DNA of 63,156 nucleotides from Gekko japonicus (taxonomy: Eukaryota). The translations under genes were made by a program, and so were the position numbers. Of the stretch, positions 7,641 through 29,300 are shown one piece after another (the stretch's first letter is position 1; each line of letters starts with the position of its first letter). The notes under the pieces are model-generated. The model saw only the letters and a program-made list of their open reading frames with translations. It was not told the origin of the DNA and searched no databases. Location of the stretch: positions 38,547-101,702 of the forward strand of contig NW_015171584.1 in NCBI RefSeq assembly GCF_001447785.1, read 5' to 3'.

Positions 7641-7906
7641 NNNNNNNNNNNNNNNNNNNNNNNNNNNNNNNNNNNNNNNNNNNNNNNNNNNNNNNNNNNN
7701 NNNNNNNNNNNNNNNNNNNNNNNNNNNNNNNNNNNNNNNNNNNNNNNNNNNNNNNNNNNNNNNNNNNNNNNNNNNNNNNNNNNNNNNNNNNNNNNNNNNN
7801 NNNNNNNNNNNNNNNNNNNNNNNNNNNNNNNNNNNNNNNNNNNNNNNNNNNNNNNNNNNNNNNNNNNNNNNNNNNNNNNNNNNNNNNNNNNNNNNNNNNN
7901 NNNNNN
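7641..7906. other. assembly gap (266 N)
   Basis: Run of N. Confidence 1.
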
Positions 7907-8305
7907 CAGAGGTTATATATGTGGATATGCTGTGTATTCCTGTTTGTCATTTTGTGGTTTATGAGTAGTTCACAGATGGCTTCTTATTCCGGATCCTTCA
8001 CTGGCAGAATTCAGGCCATTGGTTTTTCTTTGAATTAGACAGAACAAAATAGCAGTATTATGATCAAGATTCAGCCAATATTTTCACTCACACACTTAAT
8101 TCCCCTTATTGTATCCTCATCACACGTGGATTTTGTTCATGGAGCCCTAATGATGCCTTTTCATTTTCTTTTCTTTGATGGTGTTCAAAGTGTTCCTTGC
8201 TTTCTCAAAAGCACAGAAGATGGTTGGGTCCAGTCTTATGTATAGCCACATGATTCATTTCTCCTTAATTCATATATTTATGTGTATTTCCTCTTATTTT
8301 CCAGG

Positions 8306-9028
8306 ATGTTGACAAAGGAAGAAAATATTCTACAGAATAGTTCAGCACTGTCTGGATTCATCCTTCTTGGGCTTTCTGATGAGCCCAACCTGCAAAGCAT
8401 ATTGTTTTCTACTTTTCTAGTGATCTACATCATCATCCTGGCAGGAAATCTCATCATCATTCTCCTCACGTTGGTTGATCCTGCACTACAAACACCCATG
8501 TATTTCTTCCTGAGAAACCTGTCCTTCCTGGAGATCTGTTACACATCCGTAAATGTCCCCAAGATGCTTGAGAATCTTCTGTCTGGGAACAAGTCCATCT
8601 CCTTCCTAGGATGTGCTCTAGAGACCTATTTCACATTCTTTCTTGGTGGTTCTGAATGTTTTCTCCTGGCTTCAATGTCGTACGATCGCTATGTTGCCAT
8701 TTGTAAGCCTCTGCACTACCCTGTCCTCATGAACAGGAAAGTGTGCATGGGTCTAGCTGTGGCACCTTGGTTAAGTGGATTTTTTATGTCCTCTGGTCTC
8801 ACCAGTATGGTGTTCACCATGTCCTTTTGTGGTTCCAATGAGATCAATCACTTCTTTTGTGACATCCCCCCATTACTGAAATTGGCTTGTGGGGACACTT
8901 CCAGGACCGAAATGGCTGTATTTCTAGTGGCTATGATATTTATATCTTTTCCATTCCTCCCAATCTTACTGTCATATGCTGGTATCATTGCCACGATTCT
9001 GGGAATGTCTTCTGCTGAAGGGAGGTAA
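8306..9028 (+). pseudogene. olfactory receptor (OR10-like), 3'-truncated after SAEGR (TM6-TM7 missing)
   Basis: GN, LQTPMYFFL, MSYDRYVAICKPLHY and HFFCDIPP motifs. Stop occurs immediately after SAEGR, and no KAFSTC or PMLNPxIY follows. The real ATG is at 8306, after a splice acceptor. Confidence 0.92.
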
Positions 9029-9700
9029 TCACATCATCATTATTCTTCTACAATGCTTTACCAATATGCATGTGCATACTTAGAATTAAGGAGGAGTGGA
9101 GTACAACAAAGGGATCATTGCTTAAAGATCAAAAGGAAGGAGCAAGATGCACCTGCTTACATGTTTAAGCACCTTACCTCTTGCTTCTGGTAATCATAAA
9201 CTCCAGTGTCACAGATGGGTCAATTTAAAGGATAGCTTAGGAGCAAGATCAAAACAATCAGCACCATTGTGTTGTCTTGCAGGTATTCTGTGCTGGTGAG
9301 TTCAAGAAACACAAAGGATAGGGCATTTTCTGTTGGGGCACCTCACTTATGGACTCTGGATTCCCCAGAGGTTGTGTTACAAGATCAGGACAGTTGCAAA
9401 TTTATATTAAATGGCAACTGACAAAATGTGCATTTTATTCCTACCTGGTGAAATCTGCTATTCCACACAATAGCATCCTCATTGATAGTGAACTCTTGGC
9501 TTCGTGACATCTTTCCAACCTGGACTCGAAAGAAGGAGAGATTGGGGAAGATGATCCAGTTAACAATGTCATACCCAGTCAATAATTCCCCATTTTCAAA
9601 CAGGACTTCTTCTGCAGTGCTGTTGTTAAAATGGATGTTTTTTAGAGTGGAGCTACATTAGGAATGAATGTCACAACGTTTAGGGAATGGACCCTCTTCT

Positions 9701-9909
9701 TTTTTTTTAATTTAATTTTTTAATTGTTTTTAACATATATAATACAATATAAGCTAGCTTAAAGACAGTTAGACATAAAATAGCGTATGAGAAAACAATC
9801 AAACACCTATGTAACAAACAGAGTGCAAGGCTAAAATATAAAACAGTCAGAGAATTTCCATAAAGTTTATGATGAGTTTAGAAGAATAATAACTTTGTAA
9901 AGTATTCAA
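9701..9909 (-). mobile_element. short retroposon 3' fragment with 15-bp TSD
   Basis: Poly-T at the left end; direct repeat AATGGACCCTCTTCT at 9686-9700 and 9910-9924. Confidence 0.8.
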
Positions 9910-10109
9910 AATGGACCCTCTTCTCACAGTGTCTTCTACAAACATCCTACAGACTTGAATTGCACATACATAGCAAATTTCTCCGATCTTCTTGTTCGTT
10001 TATTGCCACAGGATGCACCAGTGTCTAGTATGTTTGTGGTTCTTTGAAGATTCCAAAGAGTTCCTGTGTGACCAACCACAGGATGATGTCTTATACTGAC
10101 CTTGATGAA

Positions 10110-10305
10110 CCAATAAGAATAAAGAATCAGATTATTGGTTCATCAAGGTCAGTGTTATTTACTCAGACTGGCAATGGCTCTTCAGGATCTCAGGTAGAGG
10201 TCTTTCACATCACCTTCTACCTGGAGGGTTTAATTGGAGATTCTGGGGATTGATCCTGGCCTGCATGCAAAGCAGAGGCACTGTCACTGAGCCACAGACC
10301 TTCCC
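10110..10305 (-). mobile_element. degenerate tRNA-derived SINE
   Basis: Reverse complement reads GTGGCTCAGTGACAG (A box) ... GGATCAATCCC (B box). Same family as 50786 and 54481. Confidence 0.55.
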
Positions 10306-13300
10306 AATCTGTAATATTGTTTCCACTTTCTGACACAGTTTCAAACACATCAAGAAGTTCATTACAACACTGACTTACCTACCATGGCTGAACGGTCAGC
10401 TGATCTAAGCCTCTATGCAGCATGCTTTTATGTCTGAAGAAGTATGTATGCAATATGTGTGCTATAGCATAAACAGCATTGTAGACACTGTAGCTCTGCC
10501 TGGTCATGTCAATTTCAAACATATATTTAGGCAAGCTCTCCAGCTCCTCCTCTCCTGTACATATCTTACAGTTGTTTATATTTTCACTGACCATACAGCA
10601 CTTAAATGCAAATTGCCAGAACACAGAGAGAAAATTCATCAGTGTCTTATCTGAGTTTAAGGTCTTGAGGAAGTCTGGGAATCCTTGCACTGTATTTGTG
10701 GGAACTAAAAAAGTCAAGGCACCATTGAAGGTTTTTGTAAAGAAGCTGTCCGTGGTGATCGTGTTTATGAAATCCCATTGTGCTGTTATGATCCAGACCT
10801 TCCCTATATGATCCTTTTTGGTAAATTAAAAAAAAATTAATAAAGCATCTAAAGGAAATAGACATCGAGATTCTGTGCTGACGATAATCATGTTGGCTAG
10901 AGTTGAAAGAAGTGATGAACTTATCTCTGAAATACTTTTCATGTAAGTAAAGAGAGATGTTCTGTCTACTGCTGCAGTTCTGTGCAAAAATGCAACACAA
11001 ATGGTATTCTCAGTAAGCAGTTGTCTCAAGGTTTGAATAAAACTTTCTCCATCATCATCATCAGAGACAATAAGGCCAACCCATGTCCATCTGAAATGCA
11101 GAAGCAGACGCACAATCCCCATATGCAGCAGAGCTTCCATTGGTGCCATCCGGTACAAGAAAGGGAACTCAGTTTTCTTACTTAGTGTAGTCTCATATAT
11201 ACTATAAGTGATCTAAGACAGAGGATGTAGCTTATTAGAGACAGGAGAAATAGCTGTAATTTTCCAGAATGCTGTGCTCTAGAAACACAAAGTTCTCAAC
11301 TTTTGCTTTTGGGTTAAATTTTCAAATATTCTGAACAACACATGCTTTCTTTTTCCAGTATGAGATTCTTAATTGCAAGTTTTAGTGATGAATAGCAAAT
11401 GACTTTCTAACCACAATGACCACAATCCTCTGAAGATTTCAGCATACAGAAAAAGGTAAGGATACATTATTTTTATTTAATTGCAAACTCTGAGCTTCCA
11501 TGCTTTGTACATACAAACAGTTTAATTGATAGATTTGGAAGAGACCCCTCACCAATCCATCCATGACAGCAATACTCATCATCATTATATGTCATCCTGC
11601 ACAATCTATGGAATTTCAGGAAAGTATTTTGGTCTGCGGTAGCATCTAGCTAATCTAGATGATCTATATAATAATTACGTTCTGAATTTGGTCATTCTAA
11701 AAGTCTACAACCATGAAATCCAATACACAAACCATTTAATGTGAGGCAGGATGATCGATTGCTTTGTAAAAGTATGCAACAGATGTGAATTATTCAGATT
11801 ACTTTTTAAACAAAAAAGAATACTTTAAAATGCCATCAAAATGGCACCAAGGTAATGCACAGCCACTGCCATCTTATTTTCATGTATCCCACTGCAATAA
11901 TTTATTCTCTGTAGCTGCTTTCCCACATTAAAAAACATATACACAATCATCCAGTTATTTACATTCTATACAGCTCTGCTGCTCCAATATATAGTTCATC
12001 AACTTTACATCGTGGTATGTACATGTCTATAACAATAGCTATATCATCCATGTAGATACAGATAGAATTAATCAGAAGGGTCTCATTAGTAAATTGCAAA
12101 GTTTATTGTGTATGTCTGATGGAGAAAACTGGAGAAACAAGCATAAATATTTGATATACAATTCAAGTGTCAGACAGGCAGATTGGTCATAATAGTAATA
12201 AATTCAAGGAGGGAGAAGACATAAAAGTGTCACTGGGAAAGGTAAAATAGTTTTAGATTTTCCACGATGATATAGTGTCATTATCCCCCACCTCACCCCA
12301 AAACCCTCACATTAGTCAAATGTACACAGTGGCTTGAACTCCACTATTTGTGTCTGCTAACAGAAGGCATTTCCTTGTGTGTGTGTGTGAACTGTCAAGA
12401 CACAGGCAACTTATGATCTTGGTTAGCATGTGAGATCTTACAGGACTGGAATGGAGTTTCCCTCCAACTACTCTTCCACTGCACCCCAGGGATCTTTCCA
12501 AATTATTTCACCCATTGGACACCAGGAACACTATGGGTCTACAGCAGAAATGGGAACCAAAGAAACCCATAATCTTTTCCATTTGTAGAAATGATTGGCA
12601 GAATTCATCCCATTCACTCAGCCATCATCTTGAGATACACGTCTCAGTGCATAAACAGGAACATGAGCAATGTGGTTTTCCTGTACTCCTTGCTTCGTCA
12701 TTCATGTTATGTGTATTTGATCACATTATTCAATCAAGGCATATTAGATCAGAGTACACTTGAACAGCAAGAGTCATCCATTGAGCTCTGAATACATATG
12801 CACTTACCTGTGGAATCTTGTAGATACTCAGGATAGTGGCCATCTGGATGATGGTCTCAACAGTGTATCCCCCAATGACAGACAACACCTCTGTATTCTT
12901 GTGGCATTTGAAATTGAGTGATTTCCTTTGGTGTATGAACAACATACCAAGAATTGTCTCATAAGTGTTCCATGCATTAAACTGGTTGTCATAGATGTGG
13001 AATCCCAAGGTTACATTGGGCAAGAGTCCAGGATTTTTATTAATCTCATCAATGGCAAATATCAAGGCCAGGGCTTGCTGGTAATTTTTAGGTGCCATGC
13101 TACAACAAGGTAGACATTGAGACTAAAACACCAGCACGAAAGACAATGAACTGAACCTAGATGGCTTTTTCAGTCAGTTTCACACAATTCCCATCCCTAC
13201 TACAGCAACGGTCTCACATGGCTTTTATCCTTTCAGATTCTATTAATCCTAGCATAGTGGGGGTTACTTGTTTGTTTGTTTGTTGTTTGTCTTTTTGGTT

Positions 13301-13800
13301 TGGGGTTTTGTTTGTTTGTTTCTTTGGTTTTGATGGCCAAAGGAGACACTTCCTTTCTTTGTTTTTACCATGAGAAAAGCTAGCTGGAACTAATCTTATA
13401 TTTAGTCAATTTTAACTAGTAACACAGGGTCAAAGGATTCTCAACAAACCATCCCTACAAAAATGAGAACATGAAATATGTTGGAATATGCAAGGCCTAT
13501 AGTGCATCCTTATGAAGAAGATCTGAAGATCATTCTACAGGGGGACAAGGTATCTTCTAATTGCTATGAGGATTAGAGAGCATAAGGCTAAAACTTTTGA
13601 TCTAAAACTTTTTAAATCCTTTTTCTCTGTGTTAAAAACTGCTTTTCTGTTGTTTATGTTTATAACTTATGCCAATAAAGGTACTGACTGACTTACAGAC
13701 AATTATTTATTCAATACATTGTCCAAAGCTTTCATGGCCGGAGTTCATTAGTTGTTGTAGATTTTCTGGGCTGTATGGCCGTGGTTTTGGCATTGTAGTA

Positions 13801-13841
13801 CCTGACGTTTCGCCAGCACCTGTGACTGGCATACTCAGAGG
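13801..13841 (-). ncRNA. degenerate minimal type I hammerhead ribozyme motif
   Basis: Minus strand reads CCT-CTGAGTA-TGCCAG(loop)CTGGC-GAAAC-GTC-AGG; core G8 has changed to T. Confidence 0.6.
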
Positions 13842-13885
13842 TATAACACAGAAAGATACTGAGTATTCTATCATTCTGTATTACA

Positions 13886-13926
13886 CCTCTGAGGATGCCA
13901 GTCACAGCTTCTGGCAAAATGTCAGG
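13886..13926 (+). ncRNA. degenerate minimal type I hammerhead ribozyme motif
   Basis: CCT-CTGAGGA-TGCCAG(loop)CTGGC-AAAA-TGTC-AGG. GAAAC has become AAAAT, consistent with CpG decay. Confidence 0.6.
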
Positions 13927-14234
13927 TACTACAATGCCAAGACCATGGCCATACACCTCAGAAAATCTACAACAACTAATTATTTATTCATTTAGAAATC
14001 AACAGAAATGATTATAACACAAAAAGCAAGCCATACAATCAGAGATGGACTTTTGAGAATATGGTTCACATGCTGGAATTTATTTAGCCTTCCCAACCCT
14101 CTGCTTATGTCCCCAAAAATGCTTATTATGATAAGTACACAAGAAATAAAAATGATTTTAACATATAGTAACATAATAAGGGGGAAATCAAATCTTGGCA
14201 AGATATAAAAGATGAAGGAATAAATATTCAATGG

Positions 14235-15205
14235 TTGCTATATTATCAGTCAGTTTCAAGACTAAAGAAGATCTAAGAGATGTGACTGAGTCTGAACAGC
14301 TGATTATAAAACAAAAATATCATTTACTATGATGGATATACAAGTTACTACTCCAGCTAGAAACAGAAGAAGAAGTGAAAAAATGTATGATTAAATTGAT
14401 GCAGAATTTTAGAGAGCAGATATCTATGCATCAATGGGAATGTTTATGGGGGAAAAGAAATCAAGTTTACAGCCAGCCAGGCATAAGAGAAAACTGGTAC
14501 AAAATGTTTTTAAATGGTATATAATCCCAAAGGATATTGAGAAAGCAGACAAAACTACAAAGGAAAATGCTGGAAATTGATGGAAACTTTTTTCATATGT
14601 GGTGGACTTGTAAAGAAGCAAAAAGATATTGGAAGGAAATACATTAAAAAATGCAGAACATAATAAAATTTAAATTCCCTATGGAAGCTAAGAATATGTT
14701 ATTAGGTATAAAGTAAAGGTAAAGGTTCCCTTGCTCGAAAGCCAGTCGAATCTGACTCTAGGGTTGCGGTGCTCATCTCCGTTTCAAAGCCGAAGAGCCA
14801 GCGCTGTCCGAAGACATTTCCGTGGTCATGTGGCCGGCATGACTAAACACCAAGGCGCATGGAACACTGTTACCTTCCCACTGAAGTGGTACCTATTTAT
14901 CTACTTGCAATTTCTTGCTTTCGAACTGCTAGGTTGGCAGGAGCTGGAACTAGAGACGGGAGCTCACTCCGTCATGCAGCAACTCGGGTCTCGAACTGCT
15001 GAACTACTGACCTTCCACAGCCTGCAGTTCAGCATCTTAACCACTTGAGCCACCACAGCTCCTTGTTATTAGGTATACTGCCTAACAAATTACCAAAAAT
15101 TCTGAAAGAGATATTCAAATATATGGTGACAGCAGCTAGAATTATCTGTGCGGCAAAATAGAAAATAGATGTCTGGCCATACGTAGAAGACTGGGGAAAT
15201 AAACT
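14235..15205 (+). mobile_element. old L1 ORF2 3' fragment, interrupted by a Sauria SINE
   Basis: Degenerate KWYIIPKD...CWKxxxxFFHMWWTCK and YMVTAARII similarity to the ORF at 34-606. Confidence 0.7.
14711..15063 (-). mobile_element. Sauria SINE, full length, 14-bp TSD
   Basis: (ACCTTT)n tail and typical body; TSD TGTTATTAGGTATA at 14697-14710 and 15064-15077; near-identical to 56116-56464. Confidence 0.9.
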
Positions 15206-15319
15206 TGCCCCTTATACTAACTTTTGTCTTCCCCATCTTTTAAATCTTCTATTCCAAATCTACGATAAATGAGATTTGGATCATAATCAGTTGCTAGTTC
15301 TTTCTGTATTGGAGGTCAT

Positions 15320-15545
15320 GTTGCCTTAATACTTATAGGTATATTTTCAATCCACTGAAGCTTCTGAGACATCTTCAAAGACAGTCTTTCATAGAATGCA
15401 TTACAGCAAACCAACTGGGACATCACAGTAATGCAGTAATGCAGCTCAGTAATGCAGTAATGCAGCTCAGTATAACTAGGTTGGCAGAGTCTAAATAAGA
15501 GGCTAACATGAGCTAGAAGGAATTGAAAAGTCACTTCTAGAAACA
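15320..15545 (-). mobile_element. L2-like LINE RT fragment with internal 21-bp tandem duplication
   Basis: SQLVCCNAFYERLSLKMSQKLQWIEN resembles L2 SRLDYCNALY..LPLK..KLQ.VQN; (CAGTAATGCAGTAATGCAGCT)x2 at ~15426-15470. Confidence 0.5.
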
Positions 15546-16175
15546 ATGGTGATTTAAAAAAAACACACCCCTATATCCTTTGACATGGCTGAGTCCAAGA
15601 GGATGGCCAAGATCTTAACCTCAGCTAAGGCTGGTATTTCAAATAGTCTGCCTTCCCCAAACCAATTTCCAACAAATAGGTTTACTATTTTCAAACAAGA
15701 AACTTACCTAAAAATATATAGTCCACCAAATCAAATTTAGATTGTATTAAAGACAGGGATCCACCAAGTATCACATCTCCTAACCTATATATGTTGTCTG
15801 ATGTGCCCCCTGCCACACTACATCTGTTGCTCATATCCTCACATGCAAGTGGAAGGAACAGAAGCAGCAACAGCAGTAGGATGAACAGCCACCTGAGCAC
15901 AGGCCTACCCAGCCCACATCTGCACATTTGCATTGTGATCTAGGCTCCCAGGCACAAGTACCTCTGCAACAGGCACTTTGTCTGAATGTAGCACACTTTA
16001 GCAAAGAATGAGGCAGAGGCAGGATCTGTGGACATGGATATCCCACCAAGAAGGTTATTCAGGGAACAGATTGCTTGACTGAACCCAACTCTTCTATGAA
16101 ACACATCTCAGCTTTTGTGCCTTCAGCTTGGAAGTTAGTTTAGATTTAACCAGGGTTTTTTTTTTCCTGGTTGAT

Positions 16176-16200
16176 TCTACAAGGAAGAAAAGTAATTATA
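16176..16200 (-). promoter_or_regulatory. splice acceptor upstream of V2R coding exon 1
   Basis: Minus strand reads TATAATTACTTTTCTTCCTTGTAG|AATC (AG at 16178-16177). Confidence 0.55.
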
Positions 16201-16483
16201 ATGATTTTGATAATTGCTGAGCAGGCAACCATTTCCCTGATGTTGTAGCTTTTCTGTATAAATAAAATTGCTATACATTTTCCACAATCAGAAATTCAAT
16301 TATTTGTTAAACAGTAAAGTCTCTAAATTCAATTGTTACCTTTGATGTAGTCCTACATATGTGTATTATTTGCATGTAGCCCTGGTTGTCTCCTGATAGT
16401 TTTCCTACTGATTAGAGAGGAAGATTAGGCCACTTTGAAGACTGTTTTGTACATAATTTAGCATAAGCAATCCAACTTTCTGT

Positions 16484-16760
16484 CCTGACCTGGATGGCCC
16501 AACCTAGTCTGATCTCATCAGATCTCAAAAGCGACACAGGATCGGCCCTGGGTAGTATTTTGATTGGAAACCACCAAGGAATTTCAGGCTCACTATGCAG
16601 AGGAAGGCTGCCCATTTGCGGGGAGGGTGGGGTATAAATGTAACTAATAAATAAATAAATAAGCCAATGGCAAAATTACCTCTGTTAATCCCTTGCCTTG
16701 TAAACTCTACAGAATTTCCATAAATTGGCTGCAACTTGAGAGAACTTTACACGCATGTAC
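16484..16760 (+). mobile_element. 5S rRNA-derived SINE
   Basis: CTGATCTCATCAGATCTC..AAGC..CAGG..CGGCCCTGG.TAGTA.TTG....GA.ACC matches 5S rRNA internal sequence, followed by a non-5S tail. Copies at the same position in units B and C. Confidence 0.7.
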
Positions 16761-17069
16761 ACAGAGTACTTTTTGCAATATAAGTGATGTCTGCTCCAGA
16801 AGCTGAGTAACTTCTCCTAATATCCCTTCTCAGATCTGGGGTTCAAACTTGAATAATTATACCAGTAAATATATTATAAATCATAGGAATCACAGGTCTC
16901 CTCTTTAGTTACTATAATCTTATTCTGTCGTGAAAACTAGTATTAAAAATAAATATGAGGGGTAATTAAGAGTAAAATGTTTCCTAACAGTTTGTGTACC
17001 ATCCTCTGATTCTAAAGCAGGTTCCTGTATGCTCAAATGAGGGAATTTGGACTGCTAAATAGCCCTTTG

Positions 17070-17250
17070 TCATAGAATCATAAAGTTGGAAGAAACCTCC
17101 AGGGTCGTCTAGTCCAACCTCCTGCACAATGCAGGAAATTCACAAATATCTCCCTCTCCAAACCCATAGTGACTGCTGTTCCACACCCAGAAGATGACAA
17201 AAAACCTCCAGGACTGCTTCCTGACCCCACAGGAGTTCACAGGATCACCT
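17070..17250 (-). mobile_element. CR1 3' end fragment
   Basis: CATAGAATCATA tail and GTCTAGTCCAACCTCCTGC, typical of a CR1 3' UTR. Confidence 0.6.
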
Positions 17251-19253
17251 TTCAGTTCTAGACAGATCTACAAGGAGCTTCTCTTCAGCCTCTCCCTTCC
17301 GCTGCTTTTCTAAAGCAGCTGCAAGGTACACAAACAGCTTTCCTTTCTTTACCTATAACTAGCAAGTATGATTTAAGTTCCCTTGCTTTTCAGTAGTCTT
17401 CCTGTTTCCTTTACCATAAACAAGAGTAGCCACAGCTGCTGAAGGATGCTGTCTTAAGTGCACTTTCCTGGGAGTAAGCTGTATTGAATAACATGGACCA
17501 TCTGAGTAGACTTGCTTAGGATTGCTCCCTCTCACAAACCATGAATCTTCATAAACTTTCCCACTTACTTTACTGGTTTGTTTAGTAATATTTGTGATGT
17601 GGTAGAATTCCTCCCCCCCCCCCCCGGAGCTAAAGATGCCAAACTCACAGTGAGTCTCCAGCTGACTCTCCTCTTCTACAAAAGTGAGATTGCTGCCTCC
17701 TCCTTCTGACCCTATGATTCTCGACTTCTGGGCCTTCTGGGGTCCCCCTTTTTGGACTGGCCTCCCTTTTGCTGCCCCATGGGCTGGTTTCCCAAAGTTC
17801 CTGTCACTTCTGTGACAAGGAGATCCCCTTCCCCTTTCTTCCCTAAGCTTTGGATCACCACCTCCTCTCTCTCCTGCGCCACCATGCACTGATCCTCCAC
17901 TTCTCTCTCATCTCCTTCCACCCCCAACCTGGACTCTTTTACATTTTCCTCCTCACCCCCTGGTCCCACAAGGGCCACTTTTGTTTAGTGTTTGGAGGGA
18001 CAATATTGGTATTTCCAGGGATGGCAAAGTCCACTCTCTGTTGATTTGATGATTAATTGATCGGCACCAGTGTGTCAGCTGCACAAACCACTGACACGAA
18101 CTGCACAAACCTCCATAAAAACCATGGAGGTCTGTGGGAGTTTCATTGCAGGTGTGATTGCACAGCCCTCAGCTCATGAACCATGAACCATGTGGTGTTC
18201 ATGAAGAATTTAAGTTCATGACAAGGTTCATCCCTAGTCTTGAGTATTCAAAAATGCTGCTCTTATGAACAAACAGTTCATGACACTATGTTGTCGAACT
18301 TGCATCTTTGCTAAAATAATTGTCTTGCTATCACTAAAATTAGTTCTCATGAAATGCCACAGAAACACAGGGAAGAAATGGAATATAACTAACAATTTCC
18401 ATTGCTTTCTTTGGGCAATAGGTAAGACAAAGTTTTACCAGGACTGGGGCTGAAAATCGTAGGTAAACCATGACCTTCTTATTTATCACGTTTCAATACC
18501 ATACCAGTGCATTTCAGAAGTGCTCCAATTTATAAATACATATATATAGATCTTAAAGTCCTGTTCTGCTTAAAATGGAGGTTTCTGACTTTTTCTAAAG
18601 GAAGAGGTATATCCCATCAGTGGAAGTCAATACTGGTACAGAACTTTTAAATTAAGTTGATGTTTATCACTTAATTGATCAGTCAATTACAAACCGTGAC
18701 AGCAAATTGAGAAACTATATTTTAACCAGTAGACAGTCTAGCCAATGAACCACTGAGATGCTAAGTATAATTCATAAGACTAACAAAATTACAGAAGAAT
18801 GTATTTGGCCATGAATCAGTACAAATTCTCTAAACAGTTATAAAAGTTATATTATATCTACAGTTTAAAAGTATGCCATGTTCATCCATCGGTTGATTAC
18901 TATAGAACTCAGCATAGCATATCCAGTGTTCCAGGAGTTTTCCCATGTAAAAACTAACCAGTTTCAGATCTGCTGAACTTCAGTAATGTTGCTATGTCAC
19001 ATACCACTTCAGCATACCCTTGGACTAGATTTTGACTAGCAATTTTAGCCAAAGGAATTGATTTTAATGGACCAGAACAGAAACCTTTATTGGCATAACA
19101 TAAGTAAACCAGGCAAGGAAAAGTTTAAAGGATAATACAAGAACAACATCAACCAATATTCCTGGTATTCCAAAATACAAGACAATCCTAACATGATTTA
19201 CAGGAATTACAGAGTATTACTCTTGACTTCCATATGTAGGTCAAAAATTCAGT

Positions 19254-20017
19254 GACAGATAGTCACTGACAGATAGCGGTGGTGCAGGCAGTTAAAACGC
19301 CTGCACTGTAACATCACCCGAGCAGCCACTATGGCTGTTCGAGTACCACAGCGGTCGAGGTGAGCTCTCGACCTTCGTCCCAGCTCCCGCCTACCCAGCG
19401 GTCTTGAAAGCAACCTAATTGCAAGTAGGTAAATGGGTACCCACCCTTAGAGGGGTGGGGGGCACCCTGTGTGGTCGGCTGAAGATGGCGGAGATAGCGG
19501 AGACGGCGACAGTGGCTGCAACGATGGCGGCGGCAATTCCTGGCGTGGACGGCATTGGTAGTGCGGCGAGCAAGGCGGCAGCGAACAAGGCAAGGTGCAC
19601 GTTTGAGCGATCCCTGGCGGCGGAGAAGGAGTACACTGAGGGCTGCCGTGAAGAGAGAAGAAAGGGGCGTGCGCAGATGCCAAGTTCCGGCTCAGCGGAG
19701 CCGGAAAGGACGTGGCCGGGCCGGAAAGTAGGCAGAGCTGCGCGCCTAAGGAGGAGATCGCCACCACTGAACGCCGGAGACGCCAGAGAACGCCAGAGAA
19801 AGAACAACCCGCTGGACCAGGAGACCCGACCATGCCGAGCCAACGGAGAAACAGCAATAGCCACCACAGAGGGGGTGCCGGTAGGTTGTCCCACCCCCCC
19901 TTCATACATTGTGGCCCTAGCTAGGAACACAGGTGATTAGCACCAGAAACCCTGTAAGCCGCTCTGAGACCCTAGCCATGGAACAAAAGCGGGATATCAA
20001 GTCTAATGTAAATAAAT
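19254..20017 (+). mobile_element. composite SINE-like retroposon (Sauria-like head + GC-rich body + L2-type tail)
   Basis: TSD AAAAATTCAGT at 19243-19253 and 20018-20028. 19270-19460 resembles the Sauria SINE 5' half. The 3' end TGTAAGCCGCTCTGAG...GCGGGATAT...AAATAAATAAA resembles the L2-type tail at 41490-41555. Confidence 0.7.
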
Positions 20018-20029
20018 AAAAATTCAGTA

Positions 20030-21400
20030 AGCTTGTCACTCAATCAAGGAAGGACACAAGGTTGGTCCGGCAGGACCTGTTGGGGACAAACCCGTGCTGA
20101 CTTCCCAGGATCACCAAGCTGTCCTTTAGATGCTCTCAGATTAATCCCTTTAAAATCTGATCCAGTATCTTCCCTGGCACAGAGGTCAGACTGACCGGCC
20201 TGTAATTTCCTTTGTTACCCCTCCTCCCTTTTTTGAAAATTGGGATAACATCTGCCCTACTCCAGTTCTGTGGCATGTTTCCCATCCTCCAAGATGTCTG
20301 GAAGATTGTGGACAAAGGCTCTGCAAGCTCTCTAGAAAGTTCTTAGAGCACTCGTGGGTGCATACCATCTGGTCCTGGGGATCTGTACTCATTCATTGCA
20401 GCCAGGTGCTTTTCACCTACCTCTCTGTCCATGTCCACCAGCAACCCAGATGCTGTGACTTGCCTACTACCATCTCTAGAAGAGCCTGTTCTCTTCTTCA
20501 GTGAAAAAAGCAGAGGCAAAATAGGCACCGAGTCTTTCTGCTTTCTCTCCGTCCTCTGTCAGAGTTTCTCCACTTTCACCCAACAGTGGGCCCATCGCCT
20601 CTTTTATCTTGCGTTTGCTCCTCACATACCTGAAGAAGTTTTTCTTGTTGTAGTGATCCTCCCTGGCCAGATTTAGCTCGCTGTGAGCTTTGGCCTCTCT
20701 GATGGCTGACCTACAGTGCCTACCAACCCACAGATACTCTTCTTTAGAGGTATGTCCTTGCCTCCATTTCTTGAACACTTCCTTTTTCTCCCTTAGCACA
20801 TCACGGAGTTCTCTGTTCATCCATATTGGCTTCTTGGATCTCCTACCATGTTTCCTTCTTGGGCTTGAGTTTGCAAGAGCTCTCGTTTTAGAAGAGGCCA
20901 CCCTTTACTTGCTCCTTTCCCTTCTAGCAGTCTTGCCTATGGGATAATTCTCATCATGCCTCTGAGTTTATTAAAGTCTGCCTTACTGAAATCTAACATA
21001 CACGTATGGCTACAAACTTCCTTGGTCCCCCACAGCAAAAGGAATTCTAGCAGGACATGGTCACTTCCTCCTAAGGTCCCCACCACCTTTGCCCCATCTA
21101 CCATCTCTTGCCTGTGGATCAATATTAAATGGAGTATGGCAGAGCCCCTCGTAGCTTCCTCCACCATTTGCTGAAGGCAGTTGTTGTCCAGACAGGTCAG
21201 GAAGTTGCGTGACTGTGGATACTTGGCAGTTTGTCTCCCAGCACACATCAGGGACGTTGAAGTTACCCATAACTACCAGGTCATGTTGTTTGGATACCCT
21301 GTCAAGCTATTCAAGGAGGGCAGCATCCACCTCAACCTGGTCAGGAGATCTGTAGCAGACTCTGACCATCTCCACAGCTACATTTCTTCCAAATATATGT
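20030..21400 (-). mobile_element. CR1 LINE ORF2 fragment (EN C-terminus to RT N-terminus)
   Basis: MGNFNVPDVCWE, GGSDHVLLEF, LDFSKADFNKLR, NKKNFFRYV and SPGPDGMHPRVL motifs; frameshifted. Confidence 0.9.
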
Positions 21401-24400
21401 GCTCCTGATCCAACAAGCAAAATCTGTGTTTCCCCATCATCAATACGCCCTTTCCTGAACCTGCTTTACTCAGATCTTTTTTTAAAGAACACTGTCCAAA
21501 TACGTTATTGTGCTGTCTAGAATGAATGGTGCCCATTTTCCTCCCCTGCAAAGGTCTCACCCACATCAGCACCATTTCTCCACCATTAGCCCCTTGTGGG
21601 CATGTACCATTTACTACCATTTTTTCCTGTTGTGCCACCAGAGGTCTTTTTGCAGGCTTTTTTTTGGGGGGGGGGACCTGATAATTGCTATTGCACTATA
21701 GTGTAGTACAGTAGTAATCTATTTCCAGTTCAAATAGTCCACTGAATTCCTAGTGTTTGCATTGCAAAAAGGACCTTTTTCTTTTGAAGACATGAGATGA
21801 AAGGTGCAGGCAATTTTTTTGTCCAGATTGTCTAGAAGGGAATGGAGAAAGGAAGCTACAAGACAGCTGTCATGGGGTGGGAATTCACTGCTCAACAGAT
21901 TATTTCAAACTCCAATGCGCAGTGATTTCTCTGCTTATCAGGTTAAGAAAACAAAAGGTATGGGGTGACCCTTCAGGCAAAGGGATCCTGTTTTCGTGTG
22001 AACATTGTTCATATGTGTGGAAAGAAAAAATTAAAAAACCAGTGGCAAGTCCTCATACCTCCATGAGAGCCAATGCAGTGCCAGTGCAGAGTACGGGGGG
22101 CGGGGAGTGTGGGAGCTCTGCCACCAATGCACATGCCTCTGTGTTTGCCACAGTGATGAAAGCAGAGCAGAGAATCCTCACCATATGAAAGCAACCCACA
22201 TCAGAGCCATTTTATCTGTACGAAAAATGCGAAAATCAGGGAGAGAGAGGATGACTTTCTGCAGAGATAAAATTGCTGTCAGACTTGGAACAGGCTGTAT
22301 TGACTTCACTTGCCATTTTTGTTGAGTGAAGCCATCACAAGTGCTTCAAGAAGCTCCATGTGGACTATATTGAACAGGGAGCAGAGCAGCAGACCACTGA
22401 CCAGAAAGGGAAGGCTGCCTTGTTCTCATCCTGCCACCCCAATTCCTTTGTCCTCTCCACAAACGGGCAGCCATTGAGTTTTTGAAGAGAATTCTATGGG
22501 ACATGACTCTTTTGAGATTCCCAAATGAAGACTTTGCAGGAATGCGAGAACCATTGAGTATTAAAAAATTATTGTGAGAACATAAATGTACCAGGTGGTA
22601 GCCAGCCTGGTTAATTATTGCATCTCGAGACTGCCTAGGCCGAGAAAAAGGGAAGGGAGTATGCTCATCATCGTCCCAATGAAGCATAAAGCCAATTTGA
22701 TCATTGTCTTTATCTATTCTAGCATTAAAATCCCCCACTAATAGAATGAAAGCCTCAGGATATTTAATAGAGTGATTAGTAAGATAACCATTCAACCGAT
22801 TCCAATGGGCTCTGAGAATGCTATTATCTTGACAAGGGGGCATATAGACATTGGCAGTAATCAATTGAAAGTCTTTAAACAAAATAAGAAAAGTTTGGGC
22901 GAAGGGGGGGCACGCCTCTAACTGAATGACAGATAGTTTAGTAGCATTCTTAAAGAGGCCACAGAGCCCACCCATAAAACGACCCTTCCGATTCGGCCTC
23001 GTGGCAGGGAGTGAAAAGGAAGAAAACCCATTAATAGATACATTAATTGGGGACCAAGTTTCCTGGAAGAAAATCATGTCAAATGGTAGCAGAAAATTCA
23101 GAAAATCAGAGTCTCCCCATTTGTTAGCCCATCCCGCAATATTCCATGTCAGAAGTTGGATTCCTTTCTGAGAATCCCTAGAACAGTCATGGTTGTCAGG
23201 TAGTCACTCGTGTTCAGAGATTGCATCCAGAAAAGGGAGATTATCAGGGCAAATACAACCATTTGGTATAGTCTGGGGCAGAGATTTAACAGGAAGAAGT
23301 TTCAAGCGATCCGAAGTAGATGGTTTGGCCAGGGCTTCCAACGTAATTCCAGTCGACACCATAGGGAAGGCTTCAGAAACCACTGACTTAGTTCCCCTTT
23401 GCATCAAGATGGGATTTTCACACACAACTTGGGTGGAATAGTTGGGCATAAGTGTCACAGTGGCCACCTCAGTGGGGCCTGCCAAAGGTGCTAGGTGGGG
23501 TATATCCCTAACGTTGGTATCCAGGGATAGAGTGGAGTCCTTAACCCCTTGGAGTTTATGACTCATAGAGTTTAGTCTATCTATAACAGCTTGCTGATCA
23601 TCAGTTGCAAGAGCTCCAAAGGACAAAAGCATGCCGTCTTCCACATCTTTCACTAAGGGAGTCAAAGTCAAGTCATTGTTGGAGTCATCTAAATCCAGGG
23701 AAGCCAGAAAATCTTTGCTACCAGTTCGCATACAAGAAGTCTTGGGATCAATTTGCATTGTTTAGTCATCAGCAGATGTTTCTTCCCAAGAAATCAAATT
23801 GGTATGGATAGTATCAGCAGACTTGGACGGGACACTCAATGGTTTAGAAGAGGGTATACATTTTACACATTTCTTAGTAATTAAGGGAGCGACAACGAGG
23901 TTCCGAAAAACACGATTAGGGAAGATTCCCATCTTGCAGAGGGTCGCTTTCCTCTTCAATAGCAGTGCTGGCAGGTTTGAAGAAGTAAAAGTTTAAGGAC
24001 GGAGGCAAGATGTTTCTTAGCTTCAGAAAAGGTTAGCCAGCTGGGGGCAAAGCCGTATCTGCCTTTGATTGTTAAGGCGACTCTCCGAGGTTGATAAGCT
24101 AACTGAAAGATATTTTTATTAGAATCATTACAAGCACTGCTATTGTCCATTTGAGAGTCAGGATGCATCTGCTTATTGCTTTGAACATTTTGCTCACAGA
24201 TGGCTCCCTCAGATGTTTTAGCCTGAGCACAAATAGTGCAAGAGGAAAGTTCTACCACCGCAGCTTTAAGTTGTTTGATTTGAACTCTCAAGTCCTGAAT
24301 ACTGTTAAAGAGACAGTCCACAGTCCTAGCTATTAGGCAATAGGGACTCCTCATGGGGTGAGCTATTCCTCCCAGGGTTTGTAGCACTCTCTGTTTGGGT

Positions 24401-25429
24401 GGATCCTTCCTTTCTCACATCCATTTTAGGATCAATGTGGGCATTTGCCTCTGTTTCTTCAGAGGTACTATCAAGAGCAGAGTAACGATTGAAAGTCTCC
24501 ACAGTATATAGAAGGGAGCCAGTTCTATTTGGAGAATTATCAACATCCACAGGGTTGCAAAAGAAATCATTGATTTTAAACTGCTTTGCAGCTGGCAAAG
24601 GTACACTCTCCTCGCTCCCTCTCCCACGCTTAATTGGCGGCATCCCCAGAAGTCGTTAAAAGGGATGTTGTCCTCAGCTATCTCCACAAAGTTATCTCCA
24701 CAAAGTTAAAAAAGAACTCAGCTCAAGTTCACAATCCGGCAGACTTAGTAGTCTTAATATAAGATGTCGGAGAAAAACAGCCACAGGGTCTCCAATAGGG
24801 AGAGGCATGAAAGTTCCTCCAAAATTACTGGGAGTAAGAGTATACAAGAGGAAAAAAACCCGGAAAAAATAAAAGGTAGCTCATATACCCTTGGCTCAAC
24901 TAATATATTTTTTAAAAAAATAAAAAGAAACAGATAAAAAGGCCGAATAAATTTAAAACCTACTTAATGAGCCAAGAGGTAATCACCGCACAGCCTCCAC
25001 GCAGCCGACCGGAACTGGCAATTTTAATGGACCATGCCTATGTGGATTCAAAAGTGTGTAGCTGTACATCAGTGAGGGGTCTAATGTCACTTATCTTGCG
25101 TCCCATTTGTATGGAAGAATGGTAGGCATATAAATATTTTATTTTTAGATGTGAATATATTTGGACATTGGATATTTCAATGACTGTCAAGCTTGCTAAA
25201 ATTCTTACCCATATCTCTGGTATCTGCTAACATTGCAGATGCAGTACATTGAAAAAAATGTGGTTGACTATTACTATTCCTGCCTTCAGATTATCAGCAG
25301 GCATGGAAGACCCACAACAGACTTGCGGTTTCTCAGCAAAGCACTCACAATGCATCAAATGGTCTTGATGCACTATTTGAGAATTGGTATACATCAAAAA
25401 AATGAACAACTAAGAAAATGTAACATTTA

Positions 25430-25800
25430 TTTTTACCTCTACTGTTCCTTGGGTCTCCAATTATATGTTCATGTAAACTGGACAGTCGTGCGTCTTTTCT
25501 TGGTTCTTGGTTCTCCCATTCTCCTGATACATATATAAAAAGGGTTGTGAACCATTTAGGAACAGGTTATGGTGATGAAATACCCTTTGGGAGAAAATCC
25601 ACTGATTTTTCATGATGTTGTTGCAGATATCAACATTAATATTGTTCTACGGTCTATTGGGAAAACATCCTCATTAAAGAGAGCCTCCCCCATATGATTG
25701 AATGTGAGAAAACAAATATGTTAATTAATACCCACAGGAATATTTGGTTAGGACAAATAAATAGTGAGAAAACTCAGAAGGGGCACATAACTCATCTATG
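25430..25800 (-). promoter_or_regulatory. putative OR promoter/non-coding exon 1 of unit A (paralogs ~35625-36000 and ~48780-49150)
   Basis: Donor AG|GTAAAA at 25436 is conserved in all three units. Also a TA-rich box at 25531-25540, O/E-like CCCTTTGGGA (25583) and TTAATTAAT (~25721). A second donor G|GTAAG lies at ~25208. Confidence 0.35.
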
Positions 25801-26109
25801 TTTTAATTTGGAAAATCACAGGACAGGTGTACCCTAACACCATGAAGTTATTTGTGACTTATGGTACCTTCCTCCACTTGAGGATGAAGTATAAATGAAT
25901 ATTTGGTGTCTTCACTCAATTACCTGAATATCTACGAGTACATAAGGAAGCAATAGGTTTAGTGGAAGCAGAAGGAACATGCAATCCCTGCACACAGATA
26001 TTTCCTGACTTAATCCATGTTGCTCAACAGAGTGCTAAACAACACGTAACACACAAATATACCTCAATGAAATCCACCATCCCCTTTTAAGCTTGAAAAA
26101 GCTAAAGTT

Positions 26110-26314
26110 CAATGCTCCCTCTAAGCTGTGGTCTGGTGAGCAAAAATTCTACTTTGTGAGCTTCTGGCAATAATGTTGTGAGTAAGTGATTTGGCTACTG
26201 CATAAATTAGTTTGCTCTGAAGCCATCTTTCCTGAGCGAAGATAAAAAATGCATGAGTTGGAGGCTAAAAAACCATGAGCTAGCTCATACTAACTCAGCT
26301 TAGAGGGAACACTG
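26110..26314 (+). mobile_element. hAT MITE
   Basis: TIRs CAATGCTCCCTCTAAG / CTTAGAGGGAACACTG; TSD CTAAAGTT / CTAAAGAT; empty site in unit C (~49446). Confidence 0.85.
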
Positions 26315-29300
26315 CTAAAGATATGTGTGATTGACAAAGCAATCCAAAACAGTTACACTCTGCAAGCTGATTAATTCAGTGGATTTTGAAGGGTGGAACT
26401 TTGTTTAGGATTGCATTGTGGAAGCAGGAATTTGCAGAATATTTTGGCTATTTTGGTCCAATCAAAAGTATCTCTGGTAAATTGCCTTTCACAGCCATTG
26501 ACTCCCCGTGTAGATGTGTACCTCTATCAGCATCAAAAGATGCATAAACCAGTTGAACAGTGCCTTGACATAATGATGTGGGTGAAGATACGCACTGGGG
26601 AAGGGTTGTGGCTCAGAGGCAGAACACCTGTTGAACATTCAGAATGTCCTAAGTTCAGTCCACAACATATCCAGCTAAAACTACCGTAGATATTTGGAAT
26701 GGTAGGAAATAGAAAGGTAGCATGTTCCATTTTCAGATAATGAGCTCTTCCTTCCAGTGAACTTGGATACCTGGAGGTGGACATATTGCATTACTTTGTT
26801 AATAGGCATGTTAGTGGAAGGGCAGGTTGGTGCAATTGTTAGGAGTGCCTTTGTCAATCTTCACCTAATCTACGAGATGCTTTCTGCTCTGGCCTACGTT
26901 TATCAGGCCATACGGATCCATGTTTCCATAACCTCTAACCTGGATACTGTAACAAGCAACACATGGGCTGCCCTTGAAAATGTAAGGACTGTATCCCCCC
27001 ATCTTTTGACTGGGGCTCCATTCATAAGCCAAAGAGTCTGTATTGTGCCTTCGTTGTTGCTGTGAAGGAAAAGACAGTCACTTTGTCAATGGAGCATCTA
27101 TACAGATGTTTTCTGTGCACCTGCCTCACTCAGCTGCCATTCCCCCTGCATTTTCTATGCCATATCACTAGATTGCTTCTGAGGGCTTTTTAAAAAAATG
27201 TAATTGCTCCAGTATGATCTAGAAATTGGTGATTTTTTTAAAAAAAGTCCTTAAACAGATCTTTGGTGGGGCTCCAAGTGGCTGATGGCAGATAGAAGCT
27301 TTCCATCCAGATGGCATCTTACGATGCTTGGAACCCATTCTTTCTGAAGCAATCTTTCCAGAAGACTGCAGCAAGGAAAAAATGGGGAAAACCTGAAAGA
27401 CAGTCATACAGAGAACAATGTAGTATGGATGCTCTTAAAAGCTGTTCTCCAGTTGGGTGCCAAACTTGAGAAATACATCTCTGTGATTCACAGTGGGCCA
27501 TATTGTATCACTTTTAATACAGCTTAATTGGTTTCCCATTTATGTTAGTTCAAGTTGTTGGGACTTCACTTTAAAGGCCCCCATGATTTTGGACCTGAGG
27601 AACCTCAGCTGTGAGTCTGCCATCCAAAGCTGCCATTTAGGGGTCCTGATCTCTGTAGTCAAAAGATCAGGTCTAATTCTGGGAGAACTCCAGGCTCCTC
27701 ATTGGGAAGTATACCCAGCCAGCACAGGTCACATGTTGCCAGAGTTTAGTGAACTTAACCTATACTGGAACCATATTTTCAATGCTCAACATTTAAACAA
27801 GAGGTGGGGGTGGGGAGATTAAACTCCAAAGGCCCAAGTTAAACTAGGAGGTCATGGAATGGCCTCTCTCTCATACAATGTTTGGGCTGAGTCTGAGTTG
27901 TAAGAGGAAGCCCGGATGAATTGTCATCTGGGACCTCATGGTGGCTCTTGAAAGTTCATCCACCATGAATAAGCAGTCTTGTTGGCTGTAGCTATCAAGA
28001 GTCTCTAGAAAGCTTCAGGACTTAAATCACTGTGAAGTGAAGGCCACTCCACTTGCAGTGGATTCTTAAACAGAACTACACACTTCTAAGTCCAAAGAAG
28101 TAAGTAAACTTAGAAGGGTTAACTATGTTCAGGGATGAAAAGGTCACAGGCAGACATCCATTTACACTGAGCCCAGGGTCATCTTAGGAGCTAAACCTGT
28201 CTTACTATTTTAAAATCTCTAGGCAATGTTTCCCCCACACACACTTCTCTTTCTCCTCTCTAGGTTAGCATGGAGCAGTGCAGGGCTTTTATGCAGGAGC
28301 AGAAGGGCCACAATACAAAACCAGAGAAAGTATACCTGTAAATACCCAGGGCTAGGAGGCCTTGGAATTTGTCTCATGTTGTATGATACAGGGTGCTGAC
28401 AGAATACTTGTCTGATACAGTAGGACATTTATTATGTTCTTTGGTACCAATTTCATAAAAGGGGGTATGCCTTTATTTGTAATTAAATGTCACAGATTAA
28501 AATAGAAAAAGGAATATGCAAGGACAACAATGTTCCCTTAATAGCAATTGAGAAAAGTAGACGATAATATGTGGAAAAAACACAATCCTGTTTCCCTGGG
28601 TCTAAATCCTGCCCTCAATTGGCAACCAAGCTGAAAGTTGCCAAATTGATTTCTGGTTATTTCTGGTGGAAATCAAGATACTCTCCAGCTTTCATTGTTC
28701 CATACATCAGTTTAAATTGCATACTGTCCTCTTTCCTGCTTCCAGATCATTCAGAAAATACAAAAAAAAAGTCACAAAAGAAGGAACACCCTTGTTAAGC
28801 CCCATCCTGGCCAAAGTTTTCTTTGTTGTGAGAGAATTTCAGTATTTTCTTCTTCCGGAACGGTGCAAGGGCACAGTTTTGTTCATAATTCTACCCTATG
28901 TTGTTGTTGTCAGCTTTGATCCTATGCCATGCTTTCATTTGTACTCTTCTTCGTCCACCGTGGAATTCATCCTTTGCAGTGCAACATGTTCTTCTGATCC
29001 TCCAACAGACAAGTTCACACTGCAAGGGCAGCAAGGTTTAGTATACACGCTTTGGCTTTTATCTCACCACTCCTCCAAGGAACCCTGGGCCATAAGTATG
29101 ATCCCCATGTTAACTTAACAAAAATCCTATAATGTAGGTTAGGATGAGGCAGTGACAGGTGCAAGGTCATCCACTGAGTTTTGTGGCAGGTGAGGGGATT
29201 GAGCACACACTTCCTCAACAAGTAGCCTGGTACTATAAACATGACAGCACACAGGCCCTATCTTTTACATGGCCATCTCTCAATTGACATCTCGATAGGA

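What the first reader, a model, noticed from the sequence alone, without database searches (positions are those of the whole stretch)
9029..25800. A V2R gene fragment occupies the coding-exon slot of an olfactory receptor gene: possible OR-promoter-driven V2R chimera
Seen: sequence from 16263 onward is colinear with the 5' intron/promoter region of the ORs at 30773 and 46114. In those units the OR splice acceptor and ATG follow within ~60 bp. In unit A the homology stops at ~16263 and V2R sequence follows in the same (-) orientation. That V2R sequence has its own strong acceptor (TTACTTTTCTTCCTTGTAG, 16178) ahead of a signal-peptide exon. Known: ORs use upstream non-coding exons spliced to one coding exon and are under O/E + homeodomain singular-choice control, while V2Rs are vomeronasal class C GPCRs normally found in separate clusters. 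Inference: a rearrangement put a V2R under OR cis-control, a route for exchanging expression programmes between olfactory subsystems. The present V2R frame is broken, so any product today would be non-coding or truncated.
Basis: partly seen in the sequence, partly recalled or inferred. Interest (0 to 1): 0.75.

Follow-up and report, generated by a model that had tools for sequence, protein, structure and literature searches.

The report
Deletion-fused OR–V2R pseudogene in a gecko
In this gecko sequence the upstream DNA of a nose smell-receptor gene runs straight into a broken, truncated vomeronasal receptor gene; three related geckos lack the join, so it is likely a recent deletion between neighbouring genes (an assembly error is not excluded) and would make no working receptor.

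Summary
Unit A (16260-28567) is homologous to the upstream DNA of two intact ORs, and the homology stops 56 nt before their ATG. V2R exons 1-4 follow on the same strand.

Contigs of three related organisms hold both sides at species-level divergence, but break at 16259|16260 and continue into other sequence; no listed contig bridges the join. The join is therefore recent or an assembly error. No close donor copy was seen.

V2Rs are not foreign to squamate OR arrays. The nearest V2R relative in Rhineura is three accession numbers from the best OR match, and rattlesnake gene numbers place single V2Rs between ORs. A local deletion is likelier than an imported gene.

The V2R lacks exons 5-6 (no transmembrane domain) and has four frame lesions; organism A lacks the exon-1 lesion. 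A spliced chimera would encode about 85 residues and is a predicted NMD target. The promoter and splice sites are motif guesses, and the promoter motifs are at chance level.

Verdict: a dead, natural near-miss of the rodent FPR promoter hijack, in the OR-to-V2R direction.

The parts
8306..9025 (+). OR X: 5' 240 codons of an olfactory receptor, open frame, cut before TM6; TAA at 9026-9028
   Evidence: Pfam 7tm_4 1-204/280; OR profile 3-238 of 312, no 3' remainder nearby; best of 94 ORs compared is Alligator OR10A4-like, 73%
9025..9028 (.). Left join: OR X coding sequence meets non-OR sequence, taken as V2R intron 4 (opposite strand)
   Evidence: sequence; 15-mers around it unique in the window; not tested with reads
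9445..9652 (-). V2R exon 4 (208 nt), frameshifted at its start
10379..11212 (-). V2R exon 3 (834 nt), in-frame TAA at 10826-10828 and TAG at 10379-10381
12808..13099 (-). V2R exon 2 (292 nt), open in its own frame
15708..15927 (-). V2R exon 1 coding part (signal-peptide-like start), 220 nt, phase 1 against a phase-2 exon 2. Organism A has 31 more letters (6+25), which gives 251 nt, in frame
   Evidence: (table 4)
16177..16195 (-). Candidate splice acceptor (polypyrimidine tract + TAG), inside V2R-side DNA that relatives also carry; use is predicted only
16259..16260 (.). Right join: OR unit-A intron (16260 upward) meets V2R 5' DNA (16259 downward); no overlap, no repeat
16260..25207 (-). Unit-A 5' intron (inferred), homologous to the upstream DNA of ORs B and C
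19061..25034 (-). About 6-kb nested LINE-like insertion in the intron, flanked by a 14-nt target-site duplication (19061-19074, 25021-25034) that is single in unit B
   Evidence: the element type is read from ORFs and recalled, Pfam found no family for 2 of 2 ORFs scanned
25208..28567 (-). Unit-A upstream block with donor-like GT at 25208 (shared with B) and 25436 (shared with B and C); promoter and non-coding exon are inferred
   Evidence: no conservation peak, motifs at chance
29844..30773 (-). OR B, intact, 309 aa (reference unit)
45185..46114 (-). OR C, intact, 309 aa (reference unit)

Best explanation
The upstream DNA of an OR gene is joined base-sharp to a broken V2R fragment, likely because a recent deletion in this gecko's lineage removed the OR's coding exon and the start of a neighbouring V2R; a second deletion likely cut off the V2R's last two exons and the tail of another OR.

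Shown: both joins in the assembly, the V2R lesions, the missing exons, and the absence of the right join in three relatives.

Inferred: that the V2R was native to this OR array, that the events were deletions, and that the upstream block is a promoter. If that promoter still fires, it would splice donor 25208 or 25436 to acceptor 16177 and give a message for about 85 residues, with a stop 36 nt into exon 2, a predicted NMD target. A neuron choosing it would be expected to switch to another OR, as for any OR pseudogene.
For: breakpoints: V2R-side contigs end their match at 16259 with unaligned tails (X1 112 letters, X5 208). OR-side contigs end at 16260 with tails (X1 88, X3 15). In X1 and X5 the only depth at 16197 and at 16344 belongs to different contigs.

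divergence and copy number: divergence is of the same order on both sides (X1 18/1024 and 13/370; X3 38/773 and 13/201; X5 28/487 and 11/227), so both sides are orthologous. Five listed sites group window+A against B+C, so the unjoined state is ancestral. The V2R side is one contig per run at flank-like depth.

Native neighbourhood: Rhineura's nearest relative P0004 is XP_061448062 and its best OR match is XP_061448065, while 5 of 5 other Rhineura V2Rs checked are 49-529 numbers away. Rattlesnake chrZ gene numbers run OR 20715 / V2R 20716 / OR 20717 and OR 20767 / V2R 20768 / OR 20769 (PMC12400810 supplement).

Decay: 4 lesions in 1554 coding nt against 2.5-3.0 expected if the gene was neutral along the whole branch. 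The join has no repeat or overlap that an assembler would merge on. Switching away from pseudogenes: PMC11166465 passages.
Against: No read or contig was seen to span either join. The window comes from a fragmented draft (own ORs are on record on a 233,830-bp contig; N-gap at 7641-7906).

The letters of the relatives' tails were not shown, so it is not seen that unit A continues into an OR exon there, or that the two sides lie near each other.

Accession adjacency was close in only 1 of 9 species looked up. In 2 (Hemicordylus, Candoia; a different V2R clade) the gap was 95-98 numbers, and in 6 the numbers came from different series and were uninformative. P0004 is nearest by path but not a supported orthologue (quick tree, unresolved node).

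Two deletions within 7.2 kb on one short branch are needed, and OR X has no other lesion. One listed site (15999) conflicts with the window+A grouping.
Confidence: 0.6

Rival explanations
1. Assembly artefact: a V2R-pseudogene contig was joined without gaps between two OR-bearing contigs; the real animal has intact OR A and OR X.
For: The join is absent from 3 of 3 DNA runs laid. The draft is fragmented, with an N-gap 400 bp left of OR X. OR X has no lesion apart from the cut. ORs B and C share 251- and 242-nt identical tracts that could trouble an assembler.
Against: None of the runs is near-identical to the window (1.8-6.5% different), so they are relatives and not the same stock. In organism A both sides run on through 88-112 letters inside single contigs, and the join has no overlap or repeat. 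It also lies 56 nt before the ATG, not at the shared OR tract. The LINE block in the intron has a clean target-site duplication.
Confidence: 0.17
2. One reading: a V2R segment was moved or copied from a separate V2R cluster and replaced the DNA between OR X and OR A in one event.
For: One event would explain both joins and the loss of both OR parts. The relatives' tails are unread, so their neighbourhood is unproven.
Against: No donor copy: the V2R side is single-copy in three relatives, and the best protein matches are 51-52%. Solitary V2Rs among ORs are normal in squamates. There is no target-site duplication at the joins.
Confidence: 0.13
3. The right join came first and an intact V2R was expressed from the OR promoter in main-olfactory neurons for a time, before it decayed and was truncated.
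For: Same orientation and a strong acceptor 82 nt from the join. Organism A's exon 1 is in frame, so the gene may have been intact at the split. Unit A's upstream block shows no excess of lineage-specific changes (A/B/C 13/13/17 and 19/29/35). Precedent: rodent Fpr-rs3 and Fpr-rs1 (PMC7873101).
Against: Four lesions have P about 0.04-0.07 if the gene was neutral for only half of the branch, and 0.004-0.008 for a quarter (rough Poisson). Six other YAG sites with 13 or more of 16 pyrimidines lie in the intron ahead of the acceptor, and two upstream ORFs lie in the leader. In mouse, V1rb2 placed at the M71 locus supports axon outgrowth very inefficiently (PMC4967819 passage). Corn-snake V2Rs tested were vomeronasal only (PMC3590772 passage).
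Confidence: 0.07
4. The join is old, and the three relatives each carry a later insertion at exactly this base.
For: The tails were not read, so an insert longer than 112-208 letters cannot be excluded.
Against: The window groups with organism A against B and C, so the insert would need precise loss in the window lineage. The contigs abut with no duplicated target site, and the site coincides with the independently found end of OR homology.
Confidence: 0.03

Closest known systems
Rodent vomeronasal FPRs: Fpr-rs3 (V1R promoter) and Fpr-rs1 (V2R promoter) (Dietschi et al. 2017, not read; seen through passages of review PMC7873101)
   Same: A foreign receptor's coding exon with its own acceptor sits downstream of another chemoreceptor's promoter and first exon (splice trap), and the resident coding sequence is lost.
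   Different: There the incoming gene is intact, expressed, conserved and duplicated, and arrived by integration. Here the direction is OR to V2R, the gene is broken and lacks its transmembrane exon, the join is absent from three close relatives, deletion is the likelier route, and expression is unshown.
Squamate type-2 vomeronasal receptors ('V2R 26-like'), chromosome Z-homologous array (PMC12400810 passages and 2 of 7 supplement parts; PMC3590772 passages)
   Same: Exon order and phases of exons 1-4, PF01094 domain, 47-52% identity to lizard V2Rs, member of a 29-row clade with support 99, position among ORs.
   Different: No exons 5-6 (PF07562, PF00003) in the window; four frame lesions; native upstream DNA replaced.
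OR pseudogenes with retained promoters (PMC11166465 passages)
   Same: Upstream unit kept and no functional receptor produced; switching would be expected if it were chosen.
   Different: The OR coding exon is wholly gone, and multi-exon V2R sequence lies in its place.
Engineered V1rb2-to-M71 swap mouse (PMC4967819 passages)
   Same: A vomeronasal receptor sequence in an OR's coding slot.
   Different: Artificial, V1R and intact; there, axon outgrowth was very inefficient unless rescued.

Membership tests
V2R (class C GPCR) gene | Venus-flytrap domain (PF01094) across exons 1-4 with V2R exon phases | tested here: met
V2R (class C GPCR) gene | Groups with squamate V2Rs in a tree | tested here: met
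   quick tree of 59 rows (exon 3 only, top relatives only), clade support 99
V2R (class C GPCR) gene | Cysteine-rich domain and 7TM (exons 5-6) | tested here: not met
   profile positions 506-845 unmatched in the window; DNA left of the window not seen
V2R (class C GPCR) gene | Open reading frame | tested here: not met
   two stops, two frameshifts
FPR-type promoter hijack | Upstream DNA homologous to another receptor family's upstream DNA | tested here: met
FPR-type promoter hijack | Same orientation, own acceptor, resident coding exon lost | tested here: met
   (as sequence; splicing predicted)
FPR-type promoter hijack | Captured gene intact | tested here: not met
FPR-type promoter hijack | Arrangement conserved in related species | tested here: not met
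   absent from 3 of 3 relatives' DNA runs
FPR-type promoter hijack | Chimeric transcript in the new tissue | not testable with these tools
   no RNA run of the window's own stock or of known nasal tissue was identified
OR proximal promoter | O/E and homeodomain sites near a mapped start | tested here: inconclusive
   A: 1 O/E-like and 3 homeodomain-like hits against 1.2 and 2.8 by chance; C: none (patterns recalled); no start mapped

The most novel reading that the evidence does not exclude
A natural OR-promoter capture of a V2R: a deletion in a mixed OR/V2R array put a then-intact V2R under OR singular-choice control in a gecko's main olfactory neurons. A population or sister species may still carry the join with an intact gene. 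Interleaved squamate arrays would then be a recurring source of swaps between the two nasal systems.
Probability: 0.07. Interest if true: 0.8.

Novelty: new variant of a known kind. Interest (0 to 1): 0.3.

Why it matters
As it stands it is a pseudogene and changes no view of gecko smell. It does show the geometry by which an OR promoter can capture a V2R in one deletion, and it points to the enabling condition: in squamates single V2Rs sit among ORs. That makes an open question testable, namely how a V2R surrounded by ORs keeps vomeronasal expression. It also suggests a cheap screen of squamate genomes for intact V2Rs with OR-derived upstream DNA. An intact case would be the reverse counterpart of the rodent FPR hijack. 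I found no such case in print in searches, which cover an open-licence library only.

Tried and rejected
No whole genome is held for this window, so no donor search or synteny in the same assembly was possible.

RNA: no RNA holder was listed. One raw RNA run (X20, about 3% read, tissue unknown, organism A, which lacks the join) had zero depth over 15222-16437; this is no test of the chimera.

The left join and the exon 2-4 lesions were not compared with reads, so their presence in relatives is open.

An extra recent duplicate of unit A in relatives was considered and rejected. X1 record 3 differs from A by 25/166 and 19/137, as unit B does (25/166, 20/134), and the contigs skipping 165 nt mostly carry unit-C alleles. 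X1 record 4 (24 changes in about 340) is more diverged than its neighbours and stays unexplained.

Sequencing-error rescue of the V2R was rejected: the exon-3 breaks are in-frame stops, not homopolymer slips. A decayed 3' end of OR X after 9028 was not found. A simple inversion was rejected because the missing OR parts are not inside the segment. OR X nested in a long V2R intron 4, with exons 5-6 left of the window, is not excluded, but OR X's abrupt cut still needs a break.

A conservation peak marking the promoter was not found. Accession order was uninformative in 6 of 9 species. The careful tree did not finish. Earlier scan notes held no matching finding.
Full report
SETTING. The window is an OR cluster of a gecko. 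The best match to OR B is Heteronotia binoei OR10A7-like at 89%, then Eublepharis and Paroedura at 83%; the window's own ORs are on record on a 233,830-bp contig. There are four intact ORs (B 29844-30773 minus, C 45185-46114 minus, one at 55061-55990 plus, one at 61780-62796 minus) and one cut OR (X). One N-gap lies at 7641-7906. No whole genome is held.

OBSERVATION. Self-BLAST aligns 16260-28567 piecewise with the upstream DNA of B and C, at 76-90% gap-free identity to A in 6 blocks. The A-B match ends at 16260, and in B and C the ATG follows 56 nt later. Below 16260 lie a candidate acceptor (AG 16178-16177; 14 of 16 pyrimidines, matched by 12 of 2069 YAG sites) and four V2R exons: 15927-15708, 13099-12808, 11212-10379 and 9652-9445. 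A profile of 79 V2Rs matches positions 43-505 of 845 and nothing significant beyond, so exons 5-6 are absent from the window. At the left, OR X (8306-9025, plus strand) is cut after 240 codons with no remainder nearby. A 6-kb LINE-like block in the intron has a 14-nt target-site duplication that is single in B, which supports continuity across it.

STATE OF THE V2R. There are four lesions in 1554 coding nt: exon 1 is 220 nt (phase 1) against a phase-2 exon 2, exon 3 has an in-frame TAA and a terminal TAG, and exon 4 is frameshifted at its start. Exon 1 is about 8 residues short against relatives. Organism A's contig has 6 + 25 more letters there, which gives 251 nt and restores the phase (table 4). 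A spliced message would encode 85 residues and stop 36 nt into exon 2; by the established exon-junction rule it is a predicted NMD target.

RELATIVES' DNA. One search listed 24 runs, 19 holding part of 8100-16700, the best at shares 0.45 and 0.41 (organism A), 0.17 and 0.15 (B) and 0.12 (C). I laid 3 DNA runs and 1 RNA run on 15070-17330 at 85% likeness (24 rows of pieces shown, 46,916 not shown). On the V2R side, X1 record 1 matches 15236-16259 with 112 letters left over, and X5 record 15 matches 15772-16259 with 208 left over. On the OR side, X1 record 2 matches 16260-16655 with 88 left over, and X3 record 9 matches 16260-16460 with 15 left over. X3's V2R-side contig and X5's OR-side contig end short of the join and say nothing. 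No listed contig bridges it. In X1 and X5 the whole depth at 16197 and at 16344 belongs to different contigs; in X3 a short bridging contig is not excluded.

Substitutions are 18/1024 and 13/370 (A), 38/773 and 13/201 (B), and 28/487 and 11/227 (C). These agree with the 2.5%, 5.6% and 6.6% implied by word shares, so both sides are orthologous. Of 40 difference rows shown (245 not shown), five group window+A against B+C (15902, 16119, 16157, 16197, 16344; at 16344 paralogues B and C side with organisms B and C) and one (15999) conflicts. The unjoined state is therefore ancestral, and the join is younger than the split from A, or an artefact. The break falls on the same base that the paralogue comparison gave independently. 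The two sides abut without overlap, and 9 of 10 15-mers tested around it are unique in the window. The V2R side is one contig per run at flank-like depth, so no donor copy is seen. Protein searches found nothing closer than 51-52% (relatives shorter than 152 aa not searched). The tails' letters were not shown. The 88 letters equal 56 plus 32, which is what a k=31 contig would give if it ended in an OR coding start shared with paralogues (B and C are identical over coding nt 13-263). This is inference only, and k is recalled.

NATIVE NEIGHBOURHOOD. In a quick tree of 59 rows the window's exon 3 falls in a 29-row squamate clade (support 99), nearest by path to Rhineura P0004, at an unresolved node. 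P0004 is XP_061448062 and Rhineura's best match to OR B is XP_061448065; five other Rhineura V2Rs are 49, 385, 397, 422 and 529 numbers away. In Hemicordylus and Candoia a V2R of a sister clade is 98 and 95 numbers from the OR match. In Sceloporus, Euleptes, Eublepharis, Podarcis, Zootoca and Sphaerodactylus the numbers come from different series. Where contig lengths are given, V2R and OR share a chromosome, as do many other V2Rs. That accession order follows position is an assumption.

In the rattlesnake supplement (PMC12400810; parts 3 and 5 of 7 read), chromosome-Z gene numbers place V2R-282 (20716) between ORs 20715 and 20717, and V2R-273 (20768) between ORs 20767 and 20769. My hand-collapsed ranges give 20 switches between OR and V2R blocks, 14 of them between consecutive numbers, assuming numbering follows position. 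The premise of separate clusters therefore fails for squamates.

MECHANISM. Most likely (0.60) the ancestral order was OR X, V2R, OR A, OR B, OR C. One deletion joined OR A's 5' intron to the V2R's 5' DNA, and another joined V2R intron 4 to OR X. Four lesions compare with 2.5-3.0 expected if the gene was neutral over the whole branch since the split from A. P of four or more is 0.25-0.36 for the whole branch, 0.04-0.07 for half and under 0.01 for a quarter (rough Poisson from X1's rates). The gene was thus probably dead for most of the time in which the join can have existed. If the promoter is still chosen, the neuron would be expected to switch, as described for non-functional ORs (PMC11166465 passages).

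The promoter itself is unproven. The donor-like GTs at 25208 (A, B) and 25436 (A, B, C) are conserved. But the block is no more conserved than the intron, and motif counts are at chance, with none in C. Six other strong YAG sites lie in the intron and two upstream ORFs in the leader. The rivals are misassembly (0.17), import from elsewhere (0.13), a once-functional chimera (0.07) and an old join with later inserts (0.03).

AGAINST MY READING. No read spans either join. The left join and the exon 2-4 lesions were not compared with reads. OR X has no other lesion, which fits a very recent cut or an artefact. Synteny rests on numbering, and was close in 1 of 9 species looked up plus the rattlesnake lists. 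Exons 5-6 could lie left of the window.

KNOWN SYSTEMS. [quoted passage not shown] This locus has that geometry but fails membership on an intact gene and on conservation. In mouse, V1rb2 in the M71 slot gives very inefficient axon outgrowth (PMC4967819, passages). Five corn-snake V2Rs were found in the vomeronasal and not the main epithelium (PMC3590772, passages). OR promoters carry O/E-like and homeodomain sites (PMC3247230, passages). PMC12547500 (passages) added nothing specific. Other papers were seen as search listings only. Searches for an OR-promoter-driven V2R returned no paper, and one search returned none on point. Subscription journals and bioRxiv supplements were not covered.

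VERDICT. This is a recent, dead OR-V2R fusion, probably by deletion in a mixed array. It is a new variant of a known kind; interest 0.3. The novel case has probability 0.07 and interest 0.8.

Noticed in passing
window 29844-30773 and 45185-46114: OR B and OR C are identical over coding nt 13-263 (251 nt) and 490-731 (242 nt), with 66 of their 68 differences packed into two other blocks, while their upstream DNA is only 73-87% alike: patchwork gene conversion or assembly mixing.
   Followed up: partly
window 8306-9025: Among 94 ORs compared, OR X matches alligator (73%) and turtle (69%) ORs far better than the rest (57-58% or less), suggesting an old conserved OR lineage lost here by truncation; the comparison set was chosen with OR B, so it is biased.
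   Followed up: partly
PMC12400810 supplement, chromosome Z: Solitary rattlesnake V2Rs (V2R-282, V2R-273) numbered between ORs; where they are expressed would test whether OR neighbourhood affects V2R expression.
   Followed up: no
window 19061-25034: Nested insertion with a 14-nt target-site duplication: an outer LINE-like 5' part (ORF1- and endonuclease-like frames at 22346-24700, no Pfam hit for the ORF scanned) holding a CR1-like piece (about 20030-21370; type recalled) and a GC-rich segment at 19330-19940.
   Followed up: no
window 3180-5740 and 41700-42900: Two decayed LTR-retroelement pol regions; one ORF of each hits Pfam Integrase_H2C2. Described only.
   Followed up: no
window 52153-52348 and 52774-52972: 199-nt inverted repeat at 97.5% identity, suggesting a young non-autonomous DNA transposon.
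   Followed up: no
window 57510-57631: 122-nt copy (89%) of the 3' end of the OR at 55061-55990 and its flank, beside a second short duplication (56921-57080 / 58193-58353).
   Followed up: no
window 14713-15062 and 56117-56465: Two 350-nt copies (94%) of a Sauria-SINE-like element (name recalled), one in V2R intron 1.
   Followed up: no
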